NCBI GenBank assembly: GCA_963996245.1 | Contig: CAXEIY010000248.1 | Coordinates: forward strand, 44,701 to 108,700 | Length of the DNA stretch: 64,000 nucleotides | Source of the DNA: an uncultured Planctomycetia bacterium | Lineage (GTDB): Bacteria > Planctomycetota > Planctomycetia > CAXEIY01 | Direction: 5' to 3' | Part shown: positions 3,023-63,887 of the stretch, piece after piece | Numbering within the stretch: the stretch's first letter is position 1 | How the letters are laid out: every line of letters begins with the position of its first letter | The notes under the pieces: generated by a model | Database searches by the model: none | The model's input: the letters and a program-made list of their open reading frames with translations, nothing else | Told to the model about the DNA's origin: nothing | Translations under genes and position numbers: made by a program

Positions 3023-3775
3023 ATGCATAATCATTTGAAAAGAAAACTTCAAGCCGGAGATACCGCCCTCGGATGTTCCATTAGCCTCACTTCACTAGAT
3101 GCAGTGGAAGTTGCCAGCCAACTGGGTTTTGACTGGCTTTGGTTCGATACCGAACACGCCCCCCTAGACATTGGCGCGCTACAACCCCTGATGCAGGCCA
3201 ATCGTCGCGAAAACGTCACTCCCATCATCCGCGTTGAATGGAATGACCCCGTCCGGATCAAAAAAGCACTCGATATCGGTGCTCACGGCTTAATCATCCC
3301 CTGGGTGAACAATGTTGAACAAGCTGAATCCGCAGTTCAGGCCGCAAAGTACCCTCCTCGCGGTTTACGGGGATTCGGACCAAGACGTGCGTCGAATTAT
3401 GGCATGGACACCGATTACGTCTCCACAGCCAACGACGAAGTGATGGTTATTACCCAGATTGAAACACAAGAAGCCGTCAAGAATTTTGAAGACATCCTCG
3501 CGGTGGAAGGTGTCGACGCTTATTTAATTGGTCCAAATGACCTTGCTGCATCCTACGGACACTTGGGGAATCCCGGTCATCCCGAAGTGGAAGAAGTGAT
3601 TGCTGATCTTGTTGAACGCGGCAAAAAGGTCGGGGTTCCTGCTGGCATCGTATCCTTTACGGCGGAAAACGCTCAGCACCGTATCGACCAGGGTATTCAA
3701 CTGGTAAATATTGGAAGCGACATCCTGTTTCTCAAACAGGGTGCTGAAACCATGCTTAATGCCTTGAAGCGATAA
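3023..3775 (+). CDS. HpcH/HpaI-family 2-keto-3-deoxy-sugar acid aldolase
   Basis: Class II aldolase/citrate-lyase-like TIM-barrel motifs: GCSISLTSLDAVEVASQLGFDWLWFDTEHAP, AHGLIIPWVNNVEQAE, YPPRGLRGFGP, IETQEAVKNFEDILAVEGVDAYLIGPNDL. The track ORF opens at 2858, but the likely start is the ATG at 3023 (MHNHLKRKLQ), which has a GAAGGA Shine-Dalgarno sequence 8 nt upstream. Confidence 0.75.
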   Translation: MHNHLKRKLQAGDTALGCSISLTSLDAVEVASQLGFDWLWFDTEHAPLDIGALQPLMQANRRENVTPIIRVEWNDPVRIKKALDIGAHGLIIPWVNNVEQAESAVQAAKYPPRGLRGFGPRRASNYGMDTDYVSTANDEVMVITQIETQEAVKNFEDILAVEGVDAYLIGPNDLAASYGHLGNPGHPEVEEVIADLVERGKKVGVPAGIVSFTAENAQHRIDQGIQLVNIGSDILFLKQGAETMLNALKR

Positions 3776-3999
3776 TGCTTACAGATCTTCTGGAAATCAT
3801 GGTCTATGACCAACAGGCTACATGCTATCTAAACGGTGTGCAAAACCCTCTATCAACAACACCCGTGTTTGGATCGTATCTGCACATTACTCCTGCAGAA
3901 GCACGTTCCAGGCCGTAACTTAGTTTGATCGGTCAATCGCGACGTGAAAGGTTCACAGTCTATTTGTAAGATACTCTGTGTCTACATGTTATTCGTTAA

Positions 4000-4018
4000 A
4001 GCGGTCATCCGTACCGCT
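4000..4018. terminator. candidate bidirectional stem-loop (AGCGGT-N7-ACCGCT) between convergent aldolase and protease genes
   Basis: Six-bp perfect inverted repeat with a 7-nt loop in the 345-nt convergent intergenic region. It has only a weak U-tract, so it is at best a weak intrinsic terminator. Confidence 0.2.
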
Positions 4019-4120
4019 GAGGCCAGCACACTAAAGTGGGTAGAACTGTGACCTTGAGAACAGCATTGACTCTACCTGCTTTAAAGAGATACAGAAGGTG
4101 AAGAACTGTGAATTTTTCTA

Positions 4121-6145
4121 TCAGTCAGACAGTCGAATGTAGTCTTGCGTGATGAGAAGCACTTCATCTGAATAAAAATCTCGTTCAAATACAGGACGTT
4201 CGGAAGATACCTCCTCTTGTTCACCTTCACTCATATCTTCTGATTTGTCCTGCTTGAGTTCTTCGCGCAACTTCACCTTCTGAAGTGGTACAAAGGAGCG
4301 ACCTTTACGGCCAAGAAATTCCGCAATTTCATCCTCGACTTCGACAAATTCACCATCCTTGGACCGTCGTTCCGTAGACAGATCCTTTAATTGCTTGATG
4401 ATAGACTCGTTCACCAATTCCAACGGTTGGAACTCAGCCGTTACAACACGATCAAATGCCAAAGCACGATCCAGATGCTCTTCCCCGACATCCAATTGAT
4501 CAAGCAATGAGGGCAATACAATATCTGATCTAACCCCACGGGTTTGAGTACTGTCTCCATTGATTCGGTAAAACTTCTGCATCGTCAGTTTCAGTGCACC
4601 TAACGTAGAAGGCGGCAACCGCATCGCCTCAGCCAAATCCAATAAGTTCTGAACGGTTCCTTTACCGTGTGTCGTACTGTCACCGACTACGATGCCACGA
4701 TTGTAATCCTGTATAGCAGCGGCAAAAATCTCAGCCGCACTGGCGGAAAGTCGACTCGTGAGTACAACCAGAGGTCCACTGTACGTCACTCCGGAATCAC
4801 GATCATAGTACGGGGTCACTTTGCCTTCAAAGTCCTTCACCTGAACAACTGGACCGCGATCAATGAACAATCCTGTCAGACTGATAGCCTCCAATAAGAA
4901 ACCTCCTCCGTTACGTCGCAAATCAACCAATACGCCATCCACTTTTTCGCTTTTGAAATCTTCGAGAATGCGGCGAACATCCCGTGTGGTACTCGCATAA
5001 TCCTTTTTACGATTCGCCGCAGCTTTGCTATCGACATAAAAGGAATCCAGTCTGACAACACCTACTTTGTAGGGAGCACCTCCCTCTTTCATACCTTGCT
5101 CAATAACTACACCACGGGCACCGTGGTCTTCAATCTTTATCGTGCGACGAACCAAATTGTAAATTTTTCGTTCTTGAGATTCACCCGTCAGTACTTCAAT
5201 TCGTACAGTCGTGCCCGGCTTTCCTCGGATTTTACGAACAACATTACGAATCCGCATTCCAACGACATCTGAAATTTCTCCGTGCTCCCCTTGCCCAACA
5301 CCAATAATCTTGTCGCCTTTCTTCAAACGTCCGTCTGCAAATGCCGCACCGCCAGGCAAAATGCGTACAACCTCTGTGTATTCATCGCTTTGACGCAATT
5401 CTGCCCCAATCCCATTCAATTGAAGCCGCATCTGAATATTGAACTCTTCCAACGTACTTTTGGACATATAGTCCGTATGGGGATCAAATGAGCGAGCCAA
5501 AGATCCTAGAAAATTCTCCAGAATTTCATGTGAGTCAATCTGTCGCCACAGTCGAGCATTATTCTGATATCGTCGAGATACTCGTTCGACAGCTTCCTCG
5601 TACTCGGTACCGTTGATTTCTAAAACCAGAAGTTCGTATTTAACTCGTTTCCTCCAACGCTCCCTGATTTCCTGATCGTCAACACAGTACTCAATCTTGT
5701 CTGGATCCGTAACCAACACTTCATCAATATCGAAATCGAACTGGCCTTTCAATAATTGCTTGACCAGCTCCGTACGTTCACCAAGACGCTGTAAAAAACG
5801 CCCCACAATCTTATACGCAGCTTTTAACTGCCCCTGATGGACATGATCATCCAGGAGCGTCTCAAATTCAGCGAATTCCTGGTAGTCATCTTTGGTAAAG
5901 TACAGTTTATTTGGATCAAAACGCTTCACAAATCCTTCCAGCAAGGTTTTTGACATGTCATCATCAATCTGACGACGTGTCAGGTGGGCACCCTCAAGAT
6001 ACCCTCCCACGATCATCGCAATACGGCTGTCGTACTCTCCCTGTTCAGGAAGTTCAATCTGTGCCAGAAGCAAAGAACTGCAACTGATCAGCAGCAGCAT
6101 GGCTAATAGGTTTACAAACCAATAATTGCGCAGTGAATTCATCAA
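4121..6145 (-). CDS. S41-family carboxyl-terminal processing (tail-specific) protease, lipoprotein-like signal
   Basis: 674 aa. The N-terminal signal peptide ends in LLISCSS. There is a PDZ region (GDKIIGVGQGEHGEISDVVGMRIRNVVRKIRGKPGTTVRIEV). The S41 catalytic region is VVLTSRLSASAAEIFAAAIQDYNRGIVVGDSTTHGKGTVQ. Confidence 0.8.
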   Translation of the reverse strand: MMNSLRNYWFVNLLAMLLLISCSSLLLAQIELPEQGEYDSRIAMIVGGYLEGAHLTRRQIDDDMSKTLLEGFVKRFDPNKLYFTKDDYQEFAEFETLLDDHVHQGQLKAAYKIVGRFLQRLGERTELVKQLLKGQFDFDIDEVLVTDPDKIEYCVDDQEIRERWRKRVKYELLVLEINGTEYEEAVERVSRRYQNNARLWRQIDSHEILENFLGSLARSFDPHTDYMSKSTLEEFNIQMRLQLNGIGAELRQSDEYTEVVRILPGGAAFADGRLKKGDKIIGVGQGEHGEISDVVGMRIRNVVRKIRGKPGTTVRIEVLTGESQERKIYNLVRRTIKIEDHGARGVVIEQGMKEGGAPYKVGVVRLDSFYVDSKAAANRKKDYASTTRDVRRILEDFKSEKVDGVLVDLRRNGGGFLLEAISLTGLFIDRGPVVQVKDFEGKVTPYYDRDSGVTYSGPLVVLTSRLSASAAEIFAAAIQDYNRGIVVGDSTTHGKGTVQNLLDLAEAMRLPPSTLGALKLTMQKFYRINGDSTQTRGVRSDIVLPSLLDQLDVGEEHLDRALAFDRVVTAEFQPLELVNESIIKQLKDLSTERRSKDGEFVEVEDEIAEFLGRKGRSFVPLQKVKLREELKQDKSEDMSEGEQEEVSSERPVFERDFYSDEVLLITQDYIRLSD

Positions 6146-61054: not shown

Positions 61055-61474
61055 CTAAACTCCCAGCTGACGCTCCACCAACCGACACTGGATAGGCATT
61101 TTATAAGCAACCCTCGCCAGGCAATCCCTGGCCACATCTTTCGGCACCCCAGAAACTTCGAACAGAACGGTGCCTGGCTTCACCACGGCTGTCCAGTACT
61201 CCGGCTCCCCCTTCCCCTTCCCCATTCGTGTTTCCAACGGAATAGAGGTAACAGGCTTATGTGGGAAGATACGGATGTACAGCCTTCCCTCACCCCGGAT
61301 CTCTTGCCCGGCCGCTATCCTTCCGGCCTCGATGGTCTGCGCGCTAACGTAGCCCGGCTGCATTGCCTGCAACCCGAACTCGCCAAAAACAACACGATTC
61401 CCACGAGTCGCGTTACCTTTTATCCGACCCCGTTGACTTTTTCGGAACTTGACCCTTTTTGGCATCAGCGCCAT
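61055..61474 (-). CDS. rplP: 50S ribosomal protein L16
   Basis: MALMPKRVKFRKSQRGRIKGNATRGNRVVFGEFGLQA... Start taken at MALMPK. This overlaps the rpsC 3' end by about 60 nt. Confidence 0.9.
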   Translation of the reverse strand: MALMPKRVKFRKSQRGRIKGNATRGNRVVFGEFGLQAMQPGYVSAQTIEAGRIAAGQEIRGEGRLYIRIFPHKPVTSIPLETRMGKGKGEPEYWTAVVKPGTVLFEVSGVPKDVARDCLARVAYKMPIQCRLVERQLGV

Positions 61475-62114
61475 CGCCAATCTCCTGATCCAAATAATCA
61501 CCCTGATTAACCCACACCTTCACACCGATATGGCCCTGCGCCGTCTTCGCTTCTGCACAACCATAACTGATCTTCGCACGCAGTGTCGACAACGGAAGAG
61601 AACCGAGGCTCGCCTTTTCTCGACGCGCCATTTCCGCCCCCCCAAGACGACCGGCAAGCTCTACCTTGCAACCCAGCGCCCCCGCTTCCATGACCTTCTC
61701 CAACGTACGTTTCATCGTACGCCGAAAACTCTGCCTCTTGGAAAGCTGCTCACACACATCCTCAGCCACAAGCTGTGCATCCAAAGCCGGCTTACTCATC
61801 TCGTCAATCTTGATGTTAATCCGTCTCTGAATAAGGCCCTGTAACTCCTCCTGCAACCGCTCTACTTCCTGGCCTTTCCGACCGATGATTACGCCAGGGC
61901 GTGCTGCATGCAGCACAACCTTAACCTCATCCCGGGTACGCTCGATTTCTACTTTCGCGATTCCGGCAAAGGCATACTTAGCTTTAATATGCTTGCGAAG
62001 CTTGTGGTCCTCTACCAACAGACCAGCAAACTCCCGCTTGGAAGCGTACCAACGACTCTTCCAATCCTCCATCACACCCGTTCTAAATCCTATCGGGCTT
62101 ACTTTCTGTCCCAT
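61413..62114 (-). CDS. rpsC: 30S ribosomal protein S3 (with a short Lys/Gly-rich C-terminal extension)
   Basis: MGQKVSPIGFRTGVMEDWKSRWYASKREFAGLLVEDHKLRKHIKAKY..., with the KH and S3-C domains present. Confidence 0.9.
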   Translation of the reverse strand: MGQKVSPIGFRTGVMEDWKSRWYASKREFAGLLVEDHKLRKHIKAKYAFAGIAKVEIERTRDEVKVVLHAARPGVIIGRKGQEVERLQEELQGLIQRRINIKIDEMSKPALDAQLVAEDVCEQLSKRQSFRRTMKRTLEKVMEAGALGCKVELAGRLGGAEMARREKASLGSLPLSTLRAKISYGCAEAKTAQGHIGVKVWVNQGDYLDQEIGDGADAKKGQVPKKSTGSDKR

Positions 62115-62171: not shown

Positions 62172-62519
62172 TTAATCGACGATAGCCCCCGGTAAATCCA
62201 CCACTACATGAATATGGGAGAATCGTTTTCGTATCTGAAATGCCATTCCTCGGGCGCGGGGCTGGAGCCGCTTGAACATCGGCCCCGGATCAACACGCGC
62301 TTCGACCACCCGTAATTCCGCAACCTGACGGACACCTCGATCTTCGGCGTTGGCAGCAGCGCTGGCCAAAACCTTTTCCACAAAACGGGCCCCACGATTA
62401 TGAATCCCCTTCAGCGTATGCCGGGCATCCTCCACGTACATTCCCGAAATCAATTGAGTCACCGGACGAACTTTTCTCGGCGAAATACGTGCGTAGCGAT
62501 GTATTGCTCGATAAGACAT
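62172..62519 (-). CDS. rplV: 50S ribosomal protein L22
   Basis: HRYARISPRKVRPVTQLISGMYVEDARHTLK... Confidence 0.9.
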   Translation of the reverse strand: MSYRAIHRYARISPRKVRPVTQLISGMYVEDARHTLKGIHNRGARFVEKVLASAAANAEDRGVRQVAELRVVEARVDPGPMFKRLQPRARGMAFQIRKRFSHIHVVVDLPGAIVD

Positions 62520-62583
62520 AAATCCGAAAACCCTTTATCCCAACCTCAAAAAAACAACCGTTGTATTATTAAAAACTCATCAA

Positions 62584-62655
62584 TGCCGGGGGCGGGATTT
62601 GAACCCGCGACCTCCAGGTTATGAGCCTGGCGAGCTACCACTGCTCCACCCCGGG
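62584..62655 (-). tRNA. tRNA-Met (anticodon CAU), initiator-like, embedded between rpsS and rplV
   Basis: Minus-strand sequence CCCGGGG-UG-GAGC-AGUGGUA-GCUC-G-CCAGG-CUCAUAA-CCUGG-AGGUC-GCGGG-UUCAAAU-CCCGC-CCCCGGC-A folds as a 72-nt cloverleaf with anticodon CAU. It has an A11:U24 pair, an unpaired 1:72 (C:C) and discriminator A73. The D-arm, anticodon loop and T-arm are almost identical to E. coli tRNA-fMet. No CCA is encoded. Confidence 0.8.
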
Positions 62656-62670
62656 GCAATTTCGTCTCAA

Positions 62671-62679
62671 CCCCCCCCC
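62671..62679. repeat. C9/G9 homopolymer tract between rpsS stop and the tRNA
   Basis: ccccccccc read directly in the sequence. It is G9 on the transcribed strand, immediately 5' of the tRNA. Confidence 0.9.
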
Positions 62680-62700
62680 GCAAGCAAAATTCAGCACCAC

Positions 62701-62967
62701 CTACTTACCCCTGCCACTGTGCCCACGAAAAGTCCGTGTTGGAGCAAATTCCCCAAGCTTATGGCCAACCATCTCTTCGGTCACAAACACCTTAATATGG
62801 TTCTTCCCATTGTGAACCATGAACGTCTGCCCCACAAACTCCGGCACCACCGTACACGCGCGCCGCCATGTGCGAATGGGATGCCCATCACCTGACGCCA
62901 CCTGCTTCTCCACCTTACGGAACAGCTTCTCATCCACATAGGGCCCCTTCTTCAGCGACCTTCCCAT
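62701..62967 (-). CDS. rpsS: 30S ribosomal protein S19
   Basis: [21 protein letters not shown]...[38 protein letters not shown]. Confidence 0.9.
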
Positions 62968-63026: not shown

Positions 63027-63887
63027 TTAGTACGACTTCAAAATACCATGACGCTTCGTACGACGCCGACGAACGATTGCAGCATTGGACGGTTTTCGAC
63101 GCTTCCGGGTAGAGCCGCCCTTGGACAACGTCCCCGTAGGACCACAAGGATGTCGACCGCCAGCACTGCGACCCTCACCCCCACCCAACGGATGAGCCAC
63201 TGGATTCATGGCAACCCCCCTTACATGAGGACGCCTCCCAAGCCATCGCTTCCTACCGGCCTTCCCCAAACGAACCCCCATATGCTCAGGATTACCCACC
63301 TGACCTACAGTAGCTCGGCAAGCAGCAGGAACCCTTCTCACTTCACCAGAAGGCAAAGTTAACTGCGCCCAGTCTTCCTGGCGAGCCGTCAAGACAGCGG
63401 AAGTCCCGGCACTACGACAAAGCTGCCCACCACGGCCAGGCTGCATCTCTATGTTATGAATCGTCGTCCCGGTCGGGATACTGGAAAGCGGTATCGCGTT
63501 ACCCACATTCGGATCTACACCCGCCCCACTCTCTACGGTCATCCCGGCCTCTAAACCGTCAGGCGCCAGGATATACCGCTTCTCACCGTCGGCATAAAAC
63601 AACAGTGCGATTCTTGCTGAACGATTGGGATCATATTCGACAGAAGCCACCTTTGCCGGCACCCCATCCTTTTGTCGCTTCCAGTCAATAACCCGATAAA
63701 GCCGCTTGTGACCACCGCCCCTGTGGCGAGCGGTAATCTTGCCCTGATTATTGCGACCACCGGTCTTCTTTACCTTTCGCGTAAGCGACTTCTCAGGACG
63801 TTTCTTCCGATCCGTGATTTCAGCAAAATCACTAACAGAAGATCGACGTCTTCCCGCACTCGTTGGCTTATACCTACGAATTCCCAA
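63027..63887 (-). CDS. rplB: 50S ribosomal protein L2
   Basis: [14 protein letters not shown]...[26 protein letters not shown]...[16 protein letters not shown]. Confidence 0.9.

What the first reader, a model, noticed from the sequence alone, without database searches (positions are those of the whole stretch)
62584..62700. Initiator-like tRNA-Met embedded inside the S10 ribosomal-protein operon between rpsS and rplV, next to a G9 homopolymer
rpsS and rplV are normally adjacent or overlapping. Here a 72-nt tRNA (anticodon CAU, A11:U24, unpaired 1:72, A73, close to E. coli tRNA-fMet) sits in a 180-nt spacer on the same strand as the r-protein genes. It would therefore be co-transcribed and excised from the polycistronic mRNA, which couples initiator-tRNA supply to ribosome synthesis. 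A G9 run (C9 on the plus strand, 62671-62679) lies directly 5' of the tRNA. It could be an RNase processing or pausing element, or it could be slippage-prone.
Basis: seen in the sequence. Interest (0 to 1): 0.55.

Follow-up and report, generated by a model that had tools for sequence, protein, structure and literature searches.

The report
Initiator tRNA gene inside S10 operon
A real, functional-looking initiator methionine tRNA gene sits between two ribosomal-protein genes (rpsS and rplV) of a marine planctomycete, and the same layout occurs in many other Planctomycetes, mainly Gemmatales, so it is a lineage trait and not a one-off or an assembly error.

Summary
ARAGORN and Rfam call a 72-nt tRNA-Met(CAU) at 62584-62655 (minus strand). 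It lies in a 181-nt spacer between rpsS and rplV, with a C9/G9 run at 62671-62679.

The tRNA is of the bacterial initiator type:
- C1•C72 mismatch, A73 and A11:U24.
- An au/GC/GC anticodon stem.
- 85% identity to E. coli metY, against 65-67% to elongator Met and Ile2.

It is not an artefact. Seven other assemblies of the same species carry the identical tRNA at the same place. Their flanking spacers vary, and the G-run is 5, 8 or 9 long, or interrupted.

It is not unique. These are mostly Gemmatales, plus one other Pirellulales-like lineage. Eighty Planctomycetales and Pirellulales genomes lack the tRNA.

In 20 loci the tRNA starts at most 20 nt after the rpsS stop and ends at most 30 nt before the rplV start. 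That leaves no room for its own promoter or terminator. Co-transcription with excision by RNase P and a 3' endonuclease is therefore the best model, but it is inferred.

The G-run is a weakly constrained, slippage-prone tract. It shows no sign of being a conserved processing element. I found no paper describing the arrangement. Interest is moderate.

The parts
63027..63887 (-). rplB (ribosomal protein L2), upstream gene of the S10 cluster
   Evidence: ORF. The same gene is called with Pfam Ribosomal_L2 in the same-species loci L083-L086.
62701..62967 (-). rpsS (ribosomal protein S19). The stop codon is at 62701-62703. The likely start is the ATG at 62967, one codon inside the listed GTG ORF.
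   Evidence: ORF. An 88-aa S19 is called in L083-L087.
62656..62700 (-). 45-nt tRNA leader (rpsS stop to tRNA +1), unstructured and fast-evolving
   Evidence: Fold z-score is -0.13. 8 of 45 columns vary among 8 same-species assemblies.
62671..62679 (-). G9 homopolymer (C9 on the plus strand) inside the leader, ending 15 nt 5' of the tRNA; length-polymorphic
   Evidence: Sequence. Run lengths are 9/8/8/8/G7TG/5/5 in the window and L081, L083-L087.
62584..62655 (-). Initiator-type tRNA-Met (anticodon CAU): C1•C72, C2:G71, C3:G70, A73, A11:U24, A29:U41/G30:C40/G31:C39, no encoded CCA
   Evidence: ARAGORN. Rfam 68.4 bits. Cloverleaf MFE. 84.7% identity to E. coli metY against 66.7% to metT and 65.3% to ileX. 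0 of 72 columns vary within the species. Compensatory changes across 16 homologues plus one E. coli initiator.
62520..62583 (-). 64-nt trailer (tRNA 3' end to rplV ATG), which acts as the 5' UTR of rplV after tRNA 3' processing. It contains a weak ACAAC/GTTGT inverted repeat followed by a T7 run.
   Evidence: Fold z-score is +0.52 and the terminator scan finds nothing on this strand. The T-run is 7 or 6 among strains. 8 of 65 columns vary.
62172..62519 (-). rplV (ribosomal protein L22), the first cistron after the tRNA
   Evidence: ORF. Pfam PF00237 homologues. The exact protein is found in 105 blocks of public assemblies.
61413..62114 (-). rpsC (ribosomal protein S3), where the cluster continues downstream
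   Evidence: ORF; gene calls.

Best explanation
This is a functional initiator tRNA (tRNA-fMet type) gene that is a stable, inherited part of the S10 ribosomal-protein gene cluster in this marine planctomycete. The layout rpsS - tRNA-iMet - rplV is shared with most sampled Gemmatales and with at least one other Pirellulales-like lineage.

The most likely mechanism has these steps, all inferred:
1. The tRNA is transcribed as part of the polycistronic S10 transcript.
2. RNase P cuts at its 5' end.
3. An endonuclease of the RNase Z type cuts after A73, because no CCA is encoded.
4. CCA is added enzymatically.

Excision therefore splits the operon mRNA into an upstream half (ending with rpsS) and a downstream half (starting with rplV). 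In many relatives the Shine-Dalgarno-like GAGG of rplV lies immediately 3' of the tRNA. One initiator tRNA is made per operon transcript, which ties its synthesis to ribosomal-protein transcription.

The G9 run is a weakly constrained, slippage-prone homopolymer in the poorly conserved leader. It is not a conserved signal.

What is shown: the gene, its class, its conservation and its distribution. What is inferred: co-transcription, the processing enzymes and the physiological coupling.
For: tRNA call and class:
- ARAGORN, Rfam 68.4 bits, cloverleaf MFE.
- Best E. coli matches are the four initiator genes. The top hit lies in the three-gene tRNA-Met cluster between mltA and amiC.
- Identity is 84.7% to metY, annotated 'tRNA-initiator Met(CAU)', against 66.7% to metT and 65.3% to ileX.
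- The au/GC/GC anticodon stem is a documented natural initiator variant (PMC5389676).

Not an artefact, and under selection:
- The identical 72-nt tRNA sits at the same place in L081, L083-L087 and L134, from different samples.
- Within the species 0 of 72 tRNA columns vary. The leader varies at 17.8% of columns, the trailer at 12.3%, and the two coding genes at about 3%.
- Across 16 distinct homologous tRNAs plus one E. coli initiator, 99.7% of cloverleaf cells pair. Five pairs show compensatory changes, and 0 of 500 shuffles reach the observed values.

Distribution:
- The pattern 'S19 GHKLGEF motif + initiator tRNA' returned 80 metagenome loci, which is the cap.
- All 80 carry a tRNA after rpsS; ARAGORN as tRNA-Met(CAT) and L111, which has an 8-nt anticodon loop, as undetermined. 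rplV follows wherever the contig extends far enough.
- S3 proteins identify them as Gemmataceae or Gemmatales.
- In a sample chosen by S3 similarity alone, 3 of 4 species have the tRNA.

Co-transcription:
- Same strand.
- No sigma-70-like promoter and no terminator in the window spacer. Leader and trailer are unstructured.
- Across homologues the median rpsS stop-to-tRNA distance is 10 nt (minimum 1-2). The median tRNA-to-rplV distance is 39 nt (minimum 13).
- 20 loci have both flanks at or below 20 and 30 nt, with GAGG directly after the tRNA.
- Only 4 of 74 trailers have a terminator-like hairpin.

Other points:
- No CCA is encoded in any homologue.
- A known precedent for an initiator tRNA co-oriented with translation genes is E. 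coli metY-rimP-nusA-infB.
Against: - There are no transcript data, so co-transcription and the processing sites are not shown.
- Planctomycete promoters are poorly defined, and the scan covers only sigma-70-type consensus. A promoter inside the 3' end of rpsS or in the 45-nt leader cannot be excluded for this organism.
- The window's flanks (45 and 64 nt) are longer than in many Gemmatales.
- The acceptor end departs from the E. coli formylation rule. It has C1•C72 instead of C1•A72, and C2:G71 instead of G2:C71. Formylation by the cognate Fmt is therefore assumed, not tested.
- The anticodon stem has two G:C pairs, not three.
- It is unknown whether this is the organism's only initiator gene.
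- The metagenome loci were selected by a pattern that requires the tRNA. They show breadth but not frequency.
- Whether the trait has a single origin or arose by repeated gain is unresolved.
Confidence: 0.7

Rival explanations
1. The tRNA is an independent transcription unit, or it ends an upstream operon while rplV starts a new one. A promoter would lie in the 3' end of rpsS or in the leader, and a second promoter in the trailer. Under this reading the S10 cluster is physically contiguous but split at the level of transcription.
For: - The window's flanks are fairly long (45 and 64 nt) and poorly conserved.
- The promoter scan covers only the sigma-70 consensus.
- In the deep Gemmatales group L127/L140/L147 and in L132, a strong hairpin plus T-run follows the tRNA, and the trailer is 77-189 nt long. 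The cluster may therefore be split there in some lineages.
Against: - No promoter-like or terminator-like site lies on the minus strand of the window spacer.
- The trailer and leader fold no better than shuffles.
- 70 of 74 homologous trailers lack a terminator-like hairpin.
- 20 loci have no room for signals.
Confidence: 0.17
2. The tRNA is an elongator tRNA-Met or a tRNA-Ile2 (lysidine-modified CAU), not an initiator.
For: - ARAGORN and Rfam cannot tell the three CAU classes apart.
- The anticodon stem has two G:C pairs, not three.
- 2:71 is C:G.
Against: - A11:U24, where E. coli metT and ileX have C11:G24.
- 1:72 is unpaired, where metT and ileX have G1:C72.
- G4:C69 and G5:C68, where ileX has C4 and C5.
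- 84.7% identity to metY against 66.7% and 65.3%.
- BLAST against 5,426 E. coli genomes hits a median of 4 places per genome. That equals the four initiator genes I recall for K-12 (metZ, metW, metV, metY); only one hit was inspected, and it lies in the three-gene tRNA-Met cluster between mltA and amiC.
Confidence: 0.03
3. The arrangement is an assembly or binning artefact, or a decaying pseudo-tRNA left by a recent insertion.
For: The contig comes from a metagenome-type organism. The homopolymer next to the tRNA could hint at low-quality sequence.
Against: - The same junctions appear in 8 independent assemblies from different studies.
- The tRNA is invariant while its flanks vary.
- The same layout occurs in dozens of other lineages, with compensatory stem changes.
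Confidence: 0.01
4. The tRNA-shaped element acts mainly in cis. It could be an mRNA processing or stability 'punctuation' signal, or a protein-binding mimic that regulates rplV and downstream genes. Supplying initiator tRNA would be secondary.
For: - The position inside the operon is conserved.
- The rplV ribosome-binding site lies directly after the tRNA in many loci.
- Excision necessarily creates new mRNA ends.
Against: - Every initiator identity feature, the D- and T-loop tertiary nucleotides and the CAU anticodon are kept across 16 sequence variants. A mere cleavage signal would not need this.
- tRNA-less relatives do without it.
Confidence: 0.06

Closest known systems
E. coli metY-rimP-nusA-infB operon (initiator tRNA gene co-transcribed with translation and transcription factor genes)
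   Same: An initiator tRNA(CAU) gene lies on the same strand as, and directly adjacent to, genes of the translation apparatus. That metY is released from a tRNA-mRNA co-transcript by processing is established knowledge about metY, not something tested here.
   Different: metY is the first gene of its operon and has its own promoter upstream. Here the tRNA is internal, between two ribosomal-protein cistrons of the S10 cluster, so excision must cut a polycistronic mRNA in two. E. coli encodes CCA; this gene does not.
tRNA genes at the edges of the conserved r-protein/tuf operon cluster (thrU-tyrU-glyT-thrT-tufB; tRNA-Trp with secE)
   Same: [quoted passage not shown]
   Different: Those tRNAs are elongators and lie at operon starts. 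That survey of Proteobacteria and Firmicutes reports none inside the S10 operon.
Mitochondrial 'tRNA punctuation' and spacer tRNAs of rRNA operons
   Same: A tRNA inside a long precursor is removed by RNase P and RNase Z, and its removal defines the ends of the neighbouring RNAs. This rests on my own knowledge and was not tested here.
   Different: Those systems concern organellar polycistrons or rRNA precursors. They do not concern a bacterial ribosomal-protein mRNA.
Natural au/GC/GC initiator tRNAs of alpha-proteobacteria and some mycoplasmas
   Same: The first of the three anticodon-stem G:C pairs is A29:U41, with G30:C40 and G31:C39 retained (PMC5389676).
   Different: That paper does not list Planctomycetes. 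This tRNA additionally has C2:G71. In the window lineage it also has a C1•C72 mismatch instead of C1•A72.
Plastid S10-like cluster with trnI-CAU upstream of rpl23 and, in some plants, trnH next to rps19
   Same: tRNA genes are interleaved with the rpl23-rpl2-rps19-rpl22 gene string. This is recalled from memory and should be treated only as a lead.
   Different: The tRNAs and positions differ, and in part they result from inverted-repeat boundary shifts. The weak antisense Rfam hit to 'Plastid-ycf2 5'UTR' probably reflects only tRNA-CAU similarity.

Membership tests
Bacterial initiator tRNA (tRNA-fMet) | Anticodon CAU in a canonical cloverleaf | tested here: met
   ARAGORN gives anticodon cat. 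Rfam tRNA scores 68.4 bits. The MFE fold is the cloverleaf.
Bacterial initiator tRNA (tRNA-fMet) | No Watson-Crick pair at 1:72 | tested here: met
   The window has C1•C72. Homologues in Gemmatales have C1•A72. The mismatch type in the window is non-canonical.
Bacterial initiator tRNA (tRNA-fMet) | A11:U24 in the D stem (elongators have pyrimidine11:purine24) | tested here: met
   A11:U24 is present in all 16 planctomycete sequences and in one E. coli initiator. E. coli metT and ileX have C11:G24.
Bacterial initiator tRNA (tRNA-fMet) | Three consecutive G:C pairs at 29:41, 30:40 and 31:39, or the documented natural au/GC/GC variant | tested here: met
   The pairs are A29:U41, G30:C40 and G31:C39. 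Strict 3GC is not met. The au/GC/GC variant is a natural initiator form in alpha-proteobacteria and mycoplasmas (PMC5389676).
Bacterial initiator tRNA (tRNA-fMet) | Formyltransferase determinants of the E. coli type: G2:C71, C3:G70, A73 | tested here: inconclusive
   C3:G70 and A73 are present. 2:71 is C:G in the window and in 15 of 16 planctomycete variants; only the L127 group has G2:C71. The specificity of the planctomycete Fmt is unknown.
Bacterial initiator tRNA (tRNA-fMet) | Closer in sequence to known initiators than to elongator Met or Ile2 | tested here: met
   84.7% to metY, 66.7% to metT and 65.3% to ileX. The one E. coli BLAST hit inspected lies in the three-gene tRNA-Met cluster between mltA and amiC.
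Bacterial initiator tRNA (tRNA-fMet) | Charged with Met, formylated, and used in the P site for initiation | not testable with these tools
   This needs biochemistry or tRNA sequencing.
tRNA-Ile2 (lysidine, CAU) | Elongator-type architecture (paired 1:72, Y11:R24) with an ileX-like acceptor stem (C4:G69, C5:G68) | tested here: not met
   The window has an unpaired 1:72, A11:U24, G4:C69 and G5:C68. ileX differs at all of these.
tRNA-mRNA co-transcription unit (metY-nusA-infB type) | tRNA and flanking protein genes on one strand, with no promoter or terminator between them | tested here: met
   All are on the same strand. The scan finds no sigma-70-like promoter or terminator on that strand. The flanks are unstructured. 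20 homologous loci have flanks at or below 20 and 30 nt. The scan does not cover non-sigma-70 promoters.
tRNA-mRNA co-transcription unit (metY-nusA-infB type) | A single precursor transcript that is processed by RNase P and a 3' nuclease | not testable with these tools
   No transcriptome data are available here.
Phase-variable homopolymeric tract (contingency locus) | Tract length varies among strains | tested here: met
   G9, G8 (three times), G7TG and G5 (twice) in seven sequences.
Phase-variable homopolymeric tract (contingency locus) | The tract lies in a reading frame or a promoter spacer, so that its length switches expression | tested here: not met
   The tract lies in a non-coding leader 15 nt 5' of the tRNA. 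No promoter-like hexamers flank it. A promoter read across it by eye would start inside the tRNA.

The most novel reading that the evidence does not exclude
In these Planctomycetes the S10-embedded gene is the only initiator tRNA gene. Every initiator tRNA would then be made by cutting the ribosomal-protein mRNA: obligatory bacterial 'tRNA punctuation' inside the most conserved operon of bacteria, setting a fixed transcriptional ratio between initiator tRNA and r-protein mRNA and creating the rplV 5' end. The window lineage would in addition use a previously undescribed natural acceptor end (C1•C72 with C2:G71) for formylation and for rejection by EF-Tu.
Probability: 0.3. Interest if true: 0.6.

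Novelty: new variant of a known kind. Interest (0 to 1): 0.4.

Why it matters
The S10 cluster is among the most rigidly conserved gene strings in bacteria, and insertions inside it are rare. A conserved initiator tRNA between rpsS and rplV has three consequences:

- It gives a natural system in which tRNA excision must cleave an essential polycistronic mRNA.
- It links initiator-tRNA output to ribosomal-protein transcription.
- It provides a simple synteny marker, by presence or absence, within Planctomycetia.

It also extends the list of natural initiator variants to another phylum: au/GC/GC, C2:G71 and C1•C72. That is useful for work on Fmt, IF3 and P-site selection rules. None of this changes basic concepts. 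It is a tidy, testable comparative-genomics observation.

Tried and rejected
- **Second copy of the tRNA elsewhere.** I ran a metagenome scan for the same tRNA core with a trailer that does not begin with T. It returned 0 hits. Power is low, because only one of the 80 capped loci from the later JGI scan (L134) belongs to this species.
- **Two adjacent variable gaps in a pattern.** I replaced it with a D-arm anchor and validated the pattern on the window.
- **tRNA relics in tRNA-less relatives.** An nhmmer search with the tRNA profile found nothing in the rpsS-rplV spacer region of L001-L080; the only hits were weak (E about 1 or higher) and lay elsewhere in the loci. ARAGORN also found none.
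- **Structure in the leader and trailer of the window.** z-scores are -0.13 and +0.52. I rejected a terminator, an attenuator and a G-run hairpin.
- **Promoter across the G-run.** The scan found none. A TTGCTT/GAAATT pair seen by eye would start transcription inside the tRNA, so I rejected it.
- **Taxon names for the unnamed loci.** An exact protein look-up returned no organism names.
- **Literature.** Five searches found no paper describing a tRNA inside the S10 operon or in Planctomycetes r-protein operons. The library is incomplete, so this is absence of evidence only.
- **A first NJ tree run** timed out. I repeated it with my own distance matrix.

Full report
**1. What is in the sequence**

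ARAGORN finds exactly one tRNA in the 64-kb window: tRNA-Met, anticodon CAT, at 62584-62655 on the minus strand. Rfam's tRNA model matches it end to end at 68.4 bits (gathering score 29, E=4e-14). Its minimum-free-energy fold is the cloverleaf with nucleotide 1 unpaired.

The minus-strand ORFs around it are rplB (63027-63887), rpsS (62701-62967/70), rplV (62172-62519), rpsC, rplP, rpmC, rpsQ, rplN and so on. The tRNA therefore sits in a 181-nt rpsS-rplV spacer, with a 45-nt leader and a 64-nt trailer, on the strand of the operon. The C9 run is at 62671-62679; on the coding strand it is a G9 run that ends 15 nt upstream of the tRNA. E. coli K-12 has 14 nt between rpsS and rplV.

**2. Which kind of CAU tRNA**

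Read from the sequence, the tRNA has:
- C1•C72 unpaired, C2:G71, C3:G70 and G4-G7:C66-C69.
- A73 as discriminator.
- A11:U24.
- An anticodon stem of C27:G43, C28:G42, A29:U41, G30:C40 and G31:C39.
- A normal T loop, and no encoded CCA.

Aligned with E. coli K-12 genes, it is 84.7% identical to metY, which is annotated 'tRNA-initiator Met(CAU)'. It is 66.7% identical to the elongator metT and 65.3% to ileX. metT and ileX have a paired G1:C72 and C11:G24, and ileX has C4 and C5. BLAST against 5,426 E. coli genomes hits a median of four places per genome, which equals the four initiator genes I recall for K-12; the one hit I inspected lies in the three-gene tRNA-Met cluster between mltA and amiC.

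The A29:U41 'au/GC/GC' stem is a documented natural initiator variant in alpha-proteobacteria and some mycoplasmas (PMC5389676). I therefore file the gene as an initiator-type tRNA. Two deviations from the E. coli formylation rule could not be tested functionally: C:G at 2:71, and C instead of A at position 72.

**3. Not an artefact, and under selection**

- The exact L22 protein of the window occurs in 105 blocks of public assemblies.
- In every same-species contig that I read (L081, L083-L087 and L134, from Tara and other marine studies) the identical 72-nt tRNA lies at the same position.
- Across these eight sequences 0 of 72 tRNA columns vary. The leader varies at 8 of 45 columns, the trailer at 8 of 65, and rpsS and rplV at about 3%.
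- The G-run is 9, 8, 8, 8, 8, G7TG, 5 and 5 long. The T-run after a small inverted repeat in the trailer is 7 or 6.
- Neither flank folds better than shuffled sequence: z is -0.13 for the leader and +0.52 for the trailer. No sigma-70-like promoter or intrinsic terminator is found on this strand.

The G-run is thus a slippage-prone, unconstrained tract. Nothing supports a role as a processing or pausing element. It is also absent from the leaders of the other lineages I inspected (L162/L165 and six Gemmatales loci).

**4. Distribution**

*The organism.* It is a planctomycete. The best named L22 relatives are Thalassoglobus, Maioricimonas and Gimesia at about 62-67%. Nothing lies between 99% and 69% identity in a 5.8-billion-protein database, so this is an isolated lineage.

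*Genomes without the tRNA.* Eighty Planctomycetota species genomes were retrieved through L22 (mostly Planctomycetaceae, some Pirellulales). None has a tRNA between rpsS and rplV. Their spacers are 0-120 nt long and hold no detectable tRNA relic.

- All 80 carry a tRNA after rpsS, and rplV follows wherever the contig allows. ARAGORN of them tRNA-Met(CAT); it calls L111 undetermined because of an extra C in the anticodon loop.
- Only one (L134) belongs to the window's species.
- The tRNAs form 16 distinct 72-nt sequences, all of one type: CCCGGGG...CGCCAGGCUCAUAACCUGG...CCCCGGAA, with C1•A72.
- On these 16 sequences plus one E. coli initiator, the cloverleaf is kept in 99.7% of cells. Five pairs change on both sides, and 0 of 500 shuffles reach the observed values.
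- S3 proteins of the largest cluster are 100% identical to 'Gemmataceae bacterium' MAG proteins. The deepest group (L127/L140/L147) is 88% identical to a 'Gemmatales bacterium' protein.

*Unbiased check.* In a small sample chosen by S3 similarity alone, three species have the tRNA (L169, L170/L171, L172) and one lacks it (L174).

*Placement of the window.* In NJ trees of L2+S19+L22+S3 and of L22+S3, the tRNA-bearing Gemmatales form one clade. The window falls in the other clade, nearest to Pirellulales-like sequences. That clade also contains L162/L165, which carry exactly the same C72 tRNA although their S3 is only 73-74% identical to the window's. The nine other sampled members of that clade lack the tRNA.

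*Reading of the pattern.* The trait is widespread in Gemmatales and patchy elsewhere in Planctomycetia. The same intergenic site, orientation and tRNA type favour one old origin with several losses, but repeated gain is not excluded. All 80 hits have the planctomycete-type anticodon stem, so the scan gives no sign of the arrangement in other phyla.

**5. How it most likely works**

The comparative anatomy is the best available argument for co-transcription.
- The median distance from the rpsS stop to the tRNA is 10 nt (minimum 1-2). The median from the tRNA to the rplV start is 39 nt (minimum 13).
- Twenty loci have both flanks at or below 20 and 30 nt. In those a GAGG-type ribosome-binding site for rplV follows the tRNA 3' end directly, for example L141, L092, L151 and L109.
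- There is no room there for a terminator and a promoter. Only 4 of 74 trailers contain a terminator-like hairpin.
- No homologue encodes CCA, and the base after A73 is usually T or C followed by T.

I infer that the tRNA is transcribed within the S10 polycistron. RNase P would cut at +1, an RNase Z-type endonuclease would cut after A73, and CCA would be added. The cuts separate an upstream mRNA (ending with rpsS) from a downstream one (starting with rplV), and one initiator tRNA is produced per transcript. I rate the gene and its class at about 0.9, co-transcription at about 0.75, and the whole statement at 0.7. In the window itself the flanks are longer (45 and 64 nt), so an internal promoter cannot be excluded.

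**6. Comparison with what is known**

- The closest functional precedent is E. coli metY. It is an initiator tRNA gene directly upstream of, and co-oriented with, rimP-nusA-infB.
- tRNAs at the edges of the conserved r-protein super-cluster (the tufB operon tRNAs; tRNA-Trp with secE) are also known (PMC8046335).
- What differs here is the internal position between two cistrons of the S10 operon. In this respect it works more like mitochondrial tRNA punctuation or the spacer tRNAs of rRNA operons (my own knowledge).
- Five literature searches found no description of a tRNA inside the S10 operon or of this planctomycete trait. The library is incomplete, and the genes are visible in public genome records.

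I therefore rate it a new variant of a known kind.

**7. Verdict**

- The proposed co-transcription is plausible and gains indirect support from relatives.
- The G9 speculation is not supported beyond slippage.
- The arrangement is a clade-level feature, not a curiosity of this genome.
- Interest is moderate (0.40). It gives a clean, testable case of tRNA excision from an essential r-protein mRNA and adds natural initiator variants (C2:G71, au/GC/GC, C1•C72), but it does not overturn any concept.

Noticed in passing
window 61413-61474 (rpsC 3' end / rplP 5' end): rpsC and rplP overlap by about 60 nt, because S3 carries a long charged C-terminal tail. Gene calls in relatives show the same overlap, for example L083 with S3 at 3406-4107 and L16 at 4046-4465, and L169 with about 50 nt.
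   Followed up: no
window 62583-62654, + strand: There is a weak Rfam hit to 'Plastid-ycf2 5'UTR RNA' (24.2 bits, gathering 65.7) antisense to the tRNA. It most likely reflects only tRNA-CAU similarity. It is not a real feature.
   Followed up: no
L001-L080, rpsS-rplV spacers: Many tRNA-less Planctomycetaceae and Pirellulales have unusually long rpsS-rplV spacers of 55-120 nt, against 14 nt in E. coli. nhmmer and ARAGORN find no tRNA remnant in them. What fills these spacers is unknown.
   Followed up: partly
L174 2005-2083: This Gemmataceae-like MAG (GCA_029777335.1) lacks the tRNA. Its 79-nt rpsS-rplV spacer holds a G+C-rich hairpin (AAAGCCCGCC..GGTGGGCTTT) followed by TTCG, which looks like a terminator inside the S10 cluster.
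   Followed up: no
L127, L140, L147 (about 60-100 nt after the tRNA); L132: These deep Gemmatales loci have the canonical G2:C71 acceptor stem and a 160-190-nt trailer. A 12-bp hairpin plus TTTCTT follows the tRNA. In these lineages the cluster may be transcriptionally split after the tRNA.
   Followed up: partly
L082 about 230-596: This 596-nt ENA contig matches the window exactly up to the middle of rplV and then diverges completely. It is probably an assembly chimera. Its 139-aa 'L22' (P0002) is therefore unreliable.
   Followed up: no
L088 1499-1575 (E. coli strain 510016, third gene of the three-gene tRNA-Met cluster between mltA and amiC): This initiator copy reads CGTCAGG where K-12 metY has CGTCGGG. 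That is A29 opposite C41, which breaks the first of the three G:C pairs. It may be a strain variant or a sequencing error.
   Followed up: no
L111 (tRNA near 3612-3685 in operon orientation) and L105: The L111 tRNA has an extra C in the anticodon loop, and ARAGORN calls it 'tRNA-???'. In L105 the S19 reading frame appears to run 21 nt into the tRNA. Either could be a sequencing error or a real oddity.
   Followed up: no
window, L134, L162, L165: Two lineages whose S3 proteins are only 73-74% identical share a 100% identical tRNA with the unusual C72. All Gemmatales copies have A72. The C1•C72 end is therefore stable and presumably functional.
   Followed up: partly
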